Shown here one piece after another: positions 1-666 of a stretch of 676 bases of DNA; positions within the stretch are counted from its first letter, which is position 1, and the number at the start of each line of letters is the position of its first letter. Origin of the DNA: Escherichia coli (GTDB lineage Bacteria > Pseudomonadota > Gammaproteobacteria > Enterobacterales > Enterobacteriaceae); NCBI RefSeq assembly GCF_003334385.1, contig NZ_QOWN01000152.1; one strand, 5' to 3'. The translations under genes and the position numbers were made by a program. A model generated the notes under the pieces. That model did not search any database. It was given only the letters and a program-made list of their open reading frames with translations, and was not told the DNA's origin.

Positions 1-42
1 GGGGCGCGGTGTCCAAAGCGATCGTTTTTTACGCCGGATGAT

Positions 43-50
43 CCCCCCCC
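43..50. repeat. C8 homopolymer (G8 on the minus strand), followed by GGG
   Basis: Read directly: eight consecutive C at 43-50, 9-16 nt 3' of the HNH stop codon. Confidence 0.5.
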
Positions 51-58
51 GGGTCGGG

Positions 59-424
59 TTACAGTCCGATGATGTCGTCCGCTCTGCCACTACCTCCGGA
101 CACCTCCGGCAGCGTCGGGTCCGGCATACCACCCGCCGCTTCACGAGCAGACTTTTGTCGATGGCATTCGGTACAGAGCGTCCAGAGATTCGTCTCCTCA
201 TTACCACCACCGAACTGAAGTGCAATTCGGTGATCGAGTTCACTGTCACAGAGGTCAACCACACGACCACAGATACAGCACTGCCCGGCGTCCCTCAGCC
301 AGATATGACGCTTGAGGGAAACACGTGCACTGCCACTGACACGACGCTGCTCCCCCTTCAGAATATTCACCCGTCGGGTATTCAGTGTTTTGATTCTGCT
401 CTGGAGTGTACGAAGCTGAGCCAT
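59..424 (-). CDS. HNH endonuclease (zinc-binding beta-beta-alpha-metal nuclease), 121 aa, complete
   Basis: Minus-strand ORF with ATG at 424-422 and TAA at 61-59. I verified codons by hand: Cys49 (278-280), Asp64-His65 (230-235), Cys84-Thr-Glu-Cys87-His88 (161-175). The protein has the full HNH signature: CxxC (C49/C52), catalytic DH (D64-H65), GGGNEETN with Asn75/Asn79, and a second CxxC-H (C84/C87/H88). An SD-like GGGGA sits 6 nt upstream of the start. Family assignment is motif-based, not from a search. Confidence 0.85.
   Translation of the reverse strand: MAQLRTLQSRIKTLNTRRVNILKGEQRRVSGSARVSLKRHIWLRDAGQCCICGRVVDLCDSELDHRIALQFGGGNEETNLWTLCTECHRQKSAREAAGGMPDPTLPEVSGGSGRADDIIGL
92..111. repeat. 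10-bp tandem direct repeat (ACCTCCGGAC / ACCTCCGGCA) in the HNH 3' tail
   Basis: Read directly: ACCTCCGG occurs at 92-99 and 102-109, each followed by 2 nt. On the minus strand it encodes PEVSGG in the low-complexity C-terminal tail. Confidence 0.45.
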
Positions 425-465: not shown

Positions 466-666
466 ATGTCATCGAAAAACCGGACCCGCAGAACCACAAC
501 CCGCAATATCCGTTTCCCCAATCACATGATTGAACAGATCAACATCGCCCTTGAGCATAAAGGATCCGGTAACTTTTCAGCGTGGGTTATTGAAGCCTGC
601 AGGAGAAGGCTGGCAACAGATGCAACGCATCTGCGCCCGGCCAGCATGAAAAATAACGAGAAATGA
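466..666 (+). CDS. Small basic ribbon-helix-helix-like DNA-binding protein, DUF3950 (YlcI/YnfO-like) prophage family, 66 aa, complete
   Basis: ATG at 466 is preceded by AAGGA (454-458) with a 7-nt spacer; stop TGA at 664-666. Translation verified codon by codon: MSSKNRTRRTTTRNIRFPNHMIEQINIALEHKGSGNFSAWVIEACRRRLATDATHLRPASMKNNEK. It has an Arg/Thr-rich N-terminal arm, then a strand-like NIRFPNHM segment and a helix-like GSGNFSAWVIEA segment, which matches the Arc/Mnt-type RHH pattern (N-x-R-x-P ... NGRS-x-N-S). The resemblance to E. coli prophage YlcI/YnfO is from memory and is not search-verified. Confidence 0.8.
   Translation: MSSKNRTRRTTTRNIRFPNHMIEQINIALEHKGSGNFSAWVIEACRRRLATDATHLRPASMKNNEK
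617..633. repeat. Perfect 7-bp inverted repeat with 3-nt spacer (CAGATGC-AAC-GCATCTG)
   Basis: Read directly: 617-623 CAGATGC is the exact reverse complement of 627-633 GCATCTG. It lies inside the 3' end of the 466..666 CDS (codons ATDATHL), about 30 bp upstream of the putative downstream start. Its existence is certain; its function is unknown. Confidence 0.5.

What the first reader, a model, noticed from the sequence alone, without database searches (positions are those of the whole stretch)
92..111. Frame-changing 10-bp tandem duplication in the HNH C-terminal tail
ACCTCCGGAC and ACCTCCGGCA are adjacent near-identical 10-mers encoding part of the Gly/Ser-rich tail (PEVSGGSG). Because 10 is not a multiple of 3, gain or loss of one unit by slippage would shift the frame and change the C-terminus and stop position. 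The present tail may itself result from such an event. The catalytic core lies upstream and would be unaffected.
Basis: seen in the sequence. Interest (0 to 1): 0.3.

Follow-up and report, generated by a model that had tools for sequence, protein, structure and literature searches.

The report
Deletion-prone 10-bp repeat in prophage HNH gene
Two adjacent copies of a short DNA motif near the end of a prophage nuclease gene are a real weak spot: about 4% of E. coli copies have lost one unit, which scrambles the protein's tail, but this is ordinary one-way gene decay, not a switch.

Summary
ACCTCCGG occurs exactly at 92-99 and 102-109, 10 bp apart, inside the minus-strand HNH endonuclease gene (59-424, 121 aa), at codons L105-G111. 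On its own the repeat is not unusual: 10% of shuffled windows contain an equivalent one.

Alleles missing exactly one 10-bp unit exist. The 121-aa protein then becomes 150-176 aa: the last 13 residues are replaced by read-through into the intergenic DNA upstream of terS.

- Complete E. coli genomes: 2070 two-copy places, at least 90 one-copy, no three-copy.
- IMG/VR: 73 two-copy, 7 one-copy, no three-copy.
- The deletion sits on at least two different flanking haplotypes, so it arose at least twice. It is the only recurrent indel in the gene.

The idea that the present tail came from a frameshift is not supported. Repeat-free alleles and homologues from other genera have the same length (120-123 aa), and all 90 end in a hydrophobic tetrapeptide like IIGL.

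Best reading: a short-direct-repeat slippage hotspot causing one-way, probably inactivating loss. The three one-copy prophages inspected all carry IS insertions or truncated genes, and PGAP calls the gene a pseudogene in the four one-copy loci inspected. It is a known kind of event and of low interest.

The parts
92..99 (-). Repeat copy 1 (ACCTCCGG on +, CCGGAGGT on the coding strand); covers codons S109(part)-G110-G111
   Evidence: (D7)
102..109 (-). Repeat copy 2 (ACCTCCGG on +); covers codons P106-E107-V108(part)
   Evidence: (D7)
100..109 (-). One placement of the 10-bp unit missing in natural one-copy alleles. The placement is ambiguous within 92-109 because of the repeat.
   Evidence: the same 10-bp gap in L002, L003, L004, L008, L014, L018, L054, L065, L067, L068
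59..424 (-). HNH endonuclease gene, 121 aa, immediately upstream of terS/terL in an E. coli prophage late operon
   Evidence: PF01844, residues 49-94; phrog_589
59..100 (-). Codons S109-L121 plus the stop. This C-terminal tail, with the conserved hydrophobic end IIGL, is lost when one repeat unit is deleted.
   Evidence: (pLDDT below 50 for residues 109-121)
1..58 (-). Intergenic DNA between HNH and terS. Frameshifted one-copy alleles translate through it. It contains a length-variable poly-C/G run at 43-50 that sets where the shifted frame stops.
466..666 (+). YlcI/YnfO (DUF3950) gene on the opposite strand; context only

Best explanation
The two CCGGAGGT octamers, 10 bp apart near the 3' end of a terminase-associated HNH endonuclease gene, act as a short-direct-repeat deletion hotspot. 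During replication the nascent strand can mispair between the two copies and drop one 10-bp unit; this mechanism is inferred. The deletion shifts the frame after V108. It removes the last 13 residues, including the family-conserved hydrophobic C-terminal tetrapeptide. It replaces them with 42-68 unrelated residues translated from the intergenic DNA upstream of terS; this outcome is shown. The event is one-way, because slippage has no second copy left to work from. It has happened at least twice, and the one-copy alleles then persist clonally in prophages that are decaying in other ways too. The present two-copy sequence is the intact, ancestral-length gene, not the product of a frameshift.
For: - Exact repeat at the stated place.
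- Natural alleles lacking exactly one unit, at protein level and DNA level.
- Census of complete E. coli genomes: the HNH core is found at 2933 places in 1253 genomes. A two-copy junction 30-mer is found at 2070 places in 1188 genomes. A one-copy allele-B junction 39-mer is found at 88 places in 80 genomes. A one-copy allele-A-like junction is found in 2 genomes. A three-copy junction is found nowhere.
- IMG/VR: 80 loci, of which 7 are one-copy and none three-copy.
- Phage records: 76 two-copy records against one phage (JLK-2012, two records) with one copy.
- Independent origins: one-copy alleles A and B differ by about 32 of 344 gene sites and carry different SNPs on both sides within roughly 20 bp of the junction. 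Each has a two-copy sister allele 0-1 differences away.
- Site specificity: it is the only recurrent indel in the gene among 83 aligned sequences; the others are two singleton insertions.
- Ancestral frame: 90 full-length homologues are 120-123 aa and all end in a hydrophobic tetrapeptide. Repeat-free alleles have the same length.
- Decay context: PGAP annotates the one-copy gene as 'frameshifted' or 'missing C-terminus'. The three prophages inspected carry IS insertions and truncated genes.
Against: - No mutation rate was measured, so 'hotspot' rests on at least two inferred independent events plus the absence of other recurrent indels.
- All allele-B one-copy loci share one local haplotype. 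They may be a single old event spread by recombination among lambdoid prophages, so the true number of events could be as low as two.
- The repeat alone is within chance expectation.
- Loss of function of the frameshifted protein is inferred, not shown. The HNH fold is intact, and the tail is predicted to be disordered.
Confidence: 0.8

Rival explanations
1. No intrinsic hotspot. One or two chance deletions happened to fall between the repeats and were then spread among prophages by recombination and clonal descent. The site is no more mutable than its neighbours.
For: All allele-B one-copy loci share the same local 3' haplotype although the upstream gene and prophage backbones differ. Lambdoid late regions are mosaic. 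The repeat is within chance expectation.
Against: The same 10-bp unit is lost on two backgrounds that differ on both sides of the junction, each with a near-identical two-copy sister. No other recurrent indel occurs in the 366-bp gene. The breakpoints coincide exactly with the repeat unit.
Confidence: 0.12
2. A reversible contingency (phase-variation) switch. Gain and loss of the 10-bp unit toggles the HNH C-terminus, and so prophage packaging competence.
For: The unit length is not a multiple of 3, and both states exist in nature.
Against: There are only two units, and TRF finds no array. No three-copy allele was found in 5426 genomes or 80 viral loci. One-copy alleles are distributed clonally across O55:H7, O111:H8 and O121:H19 strains, not mixed within lineages. 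A single remaining copy cannot regain a unit by slippage. One-copy prophages show other irreversible lesions.
Confidence: 0.04
3. The one-copy alleles are sequencing or assembly artefacts.
For: Some other frameshifted variants come from single old draft assemblies (L089, L090).
Against: The deletion is present in 82 complete genomes from many laboratories and platforms, and is consistent within serotype lineages. A clean 10-bp loss is not a typical error of any platform. It is also present in IMG/VR and NCBI drafts.
Confidence: 0.02

Closest known systems
Slipped-strand deletion between short direct repeats (lacI CTGG hotspot; short-homology deletions in lacI) - recalled from established knowledge, not looked up here
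   Same: Loss of exactly one repeat unit with breakpoints inside the repeats; a frameshift outcome; recurrence at the same site.
   Different: There are only two copies of an 8-bp identity with a 10-bp period. Only deletions are seen, never additions. The rate was not measured. The evidence is from population genomics, not from mutation spectra.
Phase-variable simple-sequence contingency loci (e.g. tetranucleotide or homopolymer tracts in Haemophilus and Neisseria) - established knowledge
   Same: Repeat-unit change inside a coding region alters the reading frame.
   Different: Those loci have many units, show expansion and contraction, and switch reversibly within clones. Here there are two units, one-way loss, clonal inheritance and no expansions.
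Terminase-associated HNH endonucleases such as HK97 gp74
   Same: A small (~120 aa) single-domain HNH protein with CxxC...CxxC/H zinc ligands, encoded next to terS/terL. In HK97, gp74 stimulates cos cleavage by TerL (PMC9410871). Many phages encode an HNH endonuclease next to cos and the terminase genes (PMC3592412).
   Different: Direct homology to gp74 and a role in cos cleavage were not tested for this protein. The conserved hydrophobic C-terminal tetrapeptide noted here is not something I found described.

Membership tests
Short-direct-repeat slippage/deletion site | Two direct repeats close together | tested here: met
   Exact 8-mer at 92-99 and 102-109, spacing 10
Short-direct-repeat slippage/deletion site | Variant alleles that lack exactly one repeat unit, with breakpoints inside the repeats | tested here: met
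   A 10-bp gap at 100-109 in ten loci; the protein variants
Short-direct-repeat slippage/deletion site | Recurrence on independent genetic backgrounds | tested here: met
   Alleles A and B differ on both flanks, and each has a two-copy sister at 0-1 differences. At least 2 events; the upper bound is unresolved.
Short-direct-repeat slippage/deletion site | Raised mutation rate relative to non-repeat sequence | not testable with these tools
   Needs a fluctuation assay or deep sequencing. The only indirect support is that this is the sole recurrent indel in the gene.
Phase-variable contingency locus | A tract of several tandem units | tested here: not met
   Two units only; TRF finds nothing
Phase-variable contingency locus | Both expansions and contractions present in populations | tested here: not met
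   One-copy alleles found. No three-copy allele in complete E. coli genomes, and none among the 80 IMG/VR loci returned by the viral-contig scan.
Phase-variable contingency locus | Reversible switching within a clone | not testable with these tools
   No reads or cultures were available. The serotype-wide distribution of the one-copy state argues against frequent switching.
Terminase-associated HNH endonuclease (HK97 gp74-like) | HNH motif with zinc-binding cysteines | tested here: met
   PF01844 E=6.9e-7 over residues 49-94. C49, C52, C84, C87, H88, D64 and N75/N79 are invariant in 59 homologues.
Terminase-associated HNH endonuclease (HK97 gp74-like) | Gene adjacent to the terminase genes, on the same strand | tested here: met
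   The order HNH, then terS (PF03592), then terL on one strand in all eight loci with gene tables: L001, L002, L003, L004, L085, L092, L093 and L087-L090
Terminase-associated HNH endonuclease (HK97 gp74-like) | Required for or stimulates cos cleavage | not testable with these tools
   Known for HK97 gp74 (PMC9410871); not tested for this protein
Terminase-associated HNH endonuclease (HK97 gp74-like) | Detectable sequence homology to gp74 itself | not tested
   Only the generic HNH families (Pfam, phrog_589) were matched

The most novel reading that the evidence does not exclude
The recurrent 10-bp loss is not neutral decay but is selected. The family-conserved hydrophobic C-terminal tetrapeptide would be a docking motif for the terminase. 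Deleting it through this ready-made slippage site would be a repeated route by which EHEC-lineage hosts immobilise prophages, blocking cos cleavage and packaging while keeping the rest of the late region. Alternatively, the extended 150-176-aa product could have a new activity.
Probability: 0.08. Interest if true: 0.45.

Novelty: new member of a known kind. Interest (0 to 1): 0.25.

Why it matters
It shows that a tool-free prediction from raw sequence (a 10-bp repeat that should slip and shift the frame) is borne out in thousands of genomes. It explains why annotation of this common prophage gene flips between 'HNH endonuclease' of 121 aa, products of 150-176 aa, and 'pseudogene'. Practically, the one-copy/two-copy state marks certain prophage lineages in O55:H7, O111, O121 and atypical O157 strains, and it may indicate packaging-defective prophages. 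It also points to an undescribed conserved hydrophobic C-terminal motif in this HNH family that may be worth testing as a terminase-interaction site. Beyond that, it is an ordinary example of repeat-mediated gene decay.

Tried and rejected
- Tandem Repeats Finder at minimum score 30 found nothing. The repeat is too short to be an array.
- A shuffle test showed the repeat alone is not significant.
- The exact 39-mer for the allele-A one-copy junction gave no hit in complete genomes. The two A-like complete-genome cases carry a SNP next to the junction (AGTGA).
- A three-copy junction query gave no hit.
- The idea that the tail arose by frameshift was rejected from the homologue tails and repeat-free alleles.
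- Two other long variants (P0021 at 156 aa, P0022 at 155 aa) turned out not to be 10-bp deletions. They are -1 frameshifts at GATGG(T)CATG in alleles without the repeat, from old draft assemblies and possibly sequencing errors.
- P0035, P0036 and P0040 are upstream frameshifts that read the two-copy repeat in another frame.
- Rfam and the promoter/terminator scan found nothing relevant at the site.
- PDB sequence matches cover only the HNH core, so they say nothing about the tail.

Full report
**What the window is.** The 676-bp window is identical to part of a prophage in E. coli DETEC-S792. It is 83-98% identical to the same region in about 1250 of 5426 complete E. coli genomes and in 83 phage records, mostly Stx-converting phages.

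The minus strand carries a 121-aa ORF at 59-424. It matches Pfam HNH (PF01844, residues 49-94) and PHROG 589, 'HNH endonuclease'. In the source genome the gene order on that strand is lysis genes, then HNH, terS, terL, major capsid and portal. A YlcI/YnfO (DUF3950) gene (466-666) lies on the opposite strand just upstream of HNH.

This is the arrangement described for terminase-associated HNH endonucleases next to cos (PMC3592412). In HK97, the HNH protein gp74 stimulates cos cleavage by TerL (PMC9410871).

**The observation.** Window 92-101 (ACCTCCGGAC) and 102-111 (ACCTCCGGCA) match at 8 of 10 positions. The exact repeat is the octamer ACCTCCGG at 92-99 and 102-109. On the coding strand it reads CTG CCG GAG GTG TCC GGA GGT, which is L105-G111. 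PEVSGGSG is residues 106-113.

TRF reports nothing. In 5000 dinucleotide-preserving shuffles, 10% of windows contain an exact 8-mer repeated at a lag of 4-15. The feature is real and correctly located but not remarkable alone.

**Natural one-copy alleles.** A protein search returned the expected 121-aa proteins and also longer ones that diverge right after 'PEV'.
- P0010 and P0015 read ...LPEV|VAERTTSSDCNP... (153 and 150 aa).
- P0018, P0020, P0037, P0042 and P0044 read ...LPEV|MAGQTISSDCDP....

These are the sequences expected if one 10-bp unit is removed from the two common alleles (...GGT AGT GGC AGA GCG... and ...GGT CAT GGC AGG GCA...).

DNA of the encoding contigs shows a clean 10-bp gap and nothing else. 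The shifted frame runs past the normal stop and through the intergenic DNA upstream of terS, covering window 1-58 and beyond. Where it stops depends on a length-variable G-run.

**Census.**

| Collection | Query or class | Result |
|---|---|---|
| Complete E. coli genomes | HNH core | 2933 places, 1253 genomes |
| Complete E. coli genomes | two-copy junction 30-mer | 2070 places, 1188 genomes |
| Complete E. coli genomes | one-copy allele-B junction 39-mer (cannot seed on two-copy DNA) | 88 places, 80 genomes |
| Complete E. coli genomes | one-copy A-like allele | 2 genomes |
| Complete E. coli genomes | three-copy junction | none |
| IMG/VR, gapped pattern allowing 1-3 units | 80 loci | 73 two-copy, 7 one-copy, 0 three-copy |
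| Phage records | two-copy / one-copy | 76 records / 1 phage (JLK-2012) |

About 4% of loci that have or had the exact repeat have lost one unit, and none has gained one.

**Independence and specificity.** One-copy alleles A and B differ at about 32 of 344 gene sites. They carry different SNPs on both sides within roughly 20 bp of the junction. Each has a two-copy sister allele 0-1 differences away. That requires at least two separate deletions.

Within type B, the local haplotype is shared while the upstream gene and prophage backbones differ. Recombination could have spread a single event, so I do not claim more than two.

Among 83 aligned sequences, the 10-bp deletion is the only recurrent indel in the gene. 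The others are two singleton insertions.

Alleles whose tail lacks the exact octamer repeat are L087 (CCTGAGCTTCCTGATGGC) and L088 (CCGGAAGTGCCCGGTGGT). No 10-bp-deletion derivatives of them appeared in the protein set.

**Which state is ancestral.** Ninety full-length homologues from E. coli, Klebsiella, Citrobacter, Cronobacter, Hafnia, Serratia and others are 120-123 aa. Every one ends in a hydrophobic tetrapeptide such as IIGL, FVGL, IVVI or VIVI. The two-copy E. coli allele ends ...DDIIGL, in register with them.

The Cronobacter gene has no repeat. L088 has the same length with an imperfect repeat that differs from the window only by point substitutions.

The two-copy allele is therefore the intact gene. 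The exact repeat arose by substitution, not by a frame-changing duplication.

**Consequence for the protein.** AlphaFold with a 59-sequence alignment gives a confident HNH core (residues 31-98, block pLDDT 82-91). Residues 109-121 have pLDDT below 50. The deletion leaves the fold intact.

It does remove a tail that is disordered in isolation but has a conserved hydrophobic end. I infer this end is a partner-binding motif; that was not tested.

PGAP annotates one-copy genes as 'frameshifted' or 'incomplete, missing C-terminus'.

The three one-copy prophages I inspected all carry other lesions:
- O157:H7 PV15-279: an IS66 insertion and truncated exonuclease, antiterminator and methylase genes.
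- O55:H7 CB9615: ISEc31 inserted in the capsid gene.
- O121:H19 FWSEC0006: an IS3 element and a truncated helicase.

This fits decay, but three is a small sample and there is no matched control.

**Mechanism and rivals.** The best reading is slipped-strand mispairing between the two octamers, giving a one-way 10-bp loss. With a single copy left, slippage cannot restore the unit.

A reversible phase-variation switch is unlikely. There are only two units, no expansions were seen, the one-copy state is shared across whole serotype lineages, and its carriers have other irreversible damage.

Artefact is excluded by 82 complete genomes from many sources.

The remaining rival is that the site is not intrinsically mutable and the pattern reflects two chance events plus recombination. 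This cannot be excluded without a rate measurement.

**Verdict.** It is a new instance of a well-known kind of event (short-direct-repeat deletion producing frameshift pseudogenes) in a common prophage gene, and of low general interest.

Noticed in passing
window 43-50 (poly-C; a G-run on the HNH strand, just after the HNH stop): Homopolymer length varies from 7 to 13 among 63 related loci, and a nearby A/T run (window 25-30) varies from 6 to 8. This explains the 675/676/677-bp hit lengths. It also sets where frameshifted HNH products stop (150, 151, 153 or 176 aa).
   Followed up: partly
window 302-312 and 338-348 (minus-strand AGCGTC(GT) repeats, 36 bp apart): A second short-direct-repeat indel site in the same gene, this one in frame. 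P0006 (133 aa) has a tandem duplication of the 12 residues RRVSGSARVSLK, and P0025 (109 aa) has the matching deletion.
   Followed up: partly
L001 1-1335; L085 18780-21039; L092 22040-24624; L093 20778-23362: PGAP annotates the portal gene downstream as 'frameshifted' in all four prophage loci where it was in view, including the window's own prophage. This looks systematic: either a programmed or conserved frameshift, or a mismatch with the annotation model.
   Followed up: no
window left edge (about position 1); L086 end: The phage Lys8385Vzw record ends 59 bp after the HNH stop, at the window's left edge. phi330 also has HNH near its record end. The genome end (cos) may lie there, in which case the frameshifted ORF would run across it.
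   Followed up: no
L089 401-868; L090 401-871: Two old draft assemblies (O55:H7 USDA 5905 and DEC4D) carry -1 frameshifts at GATGG(T)CATG in tail alleles that lack the 10-mer repeat. They give 155- and 156-aa products. These could be real or sequencing errors.
   Followed up: partly
window 59-70 (last four codons, IIGL) and homologues: All 90 full-length homologues end in a hydrophobic tetrapeptide, although the preceding ~10 residues are highly variable and the tail is predicted to be disordered. This may be a docking motif.
   Followed up: partly
L087 tail (codons 104-110): Another common allele (PELPDGTL) has a 9-bp in-frame quasi-repeat, TTGCCTGAG/CTTCCTGAT, at the same place. The tail region therefore tends to be repetitive across alleles.
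   Followed up: no
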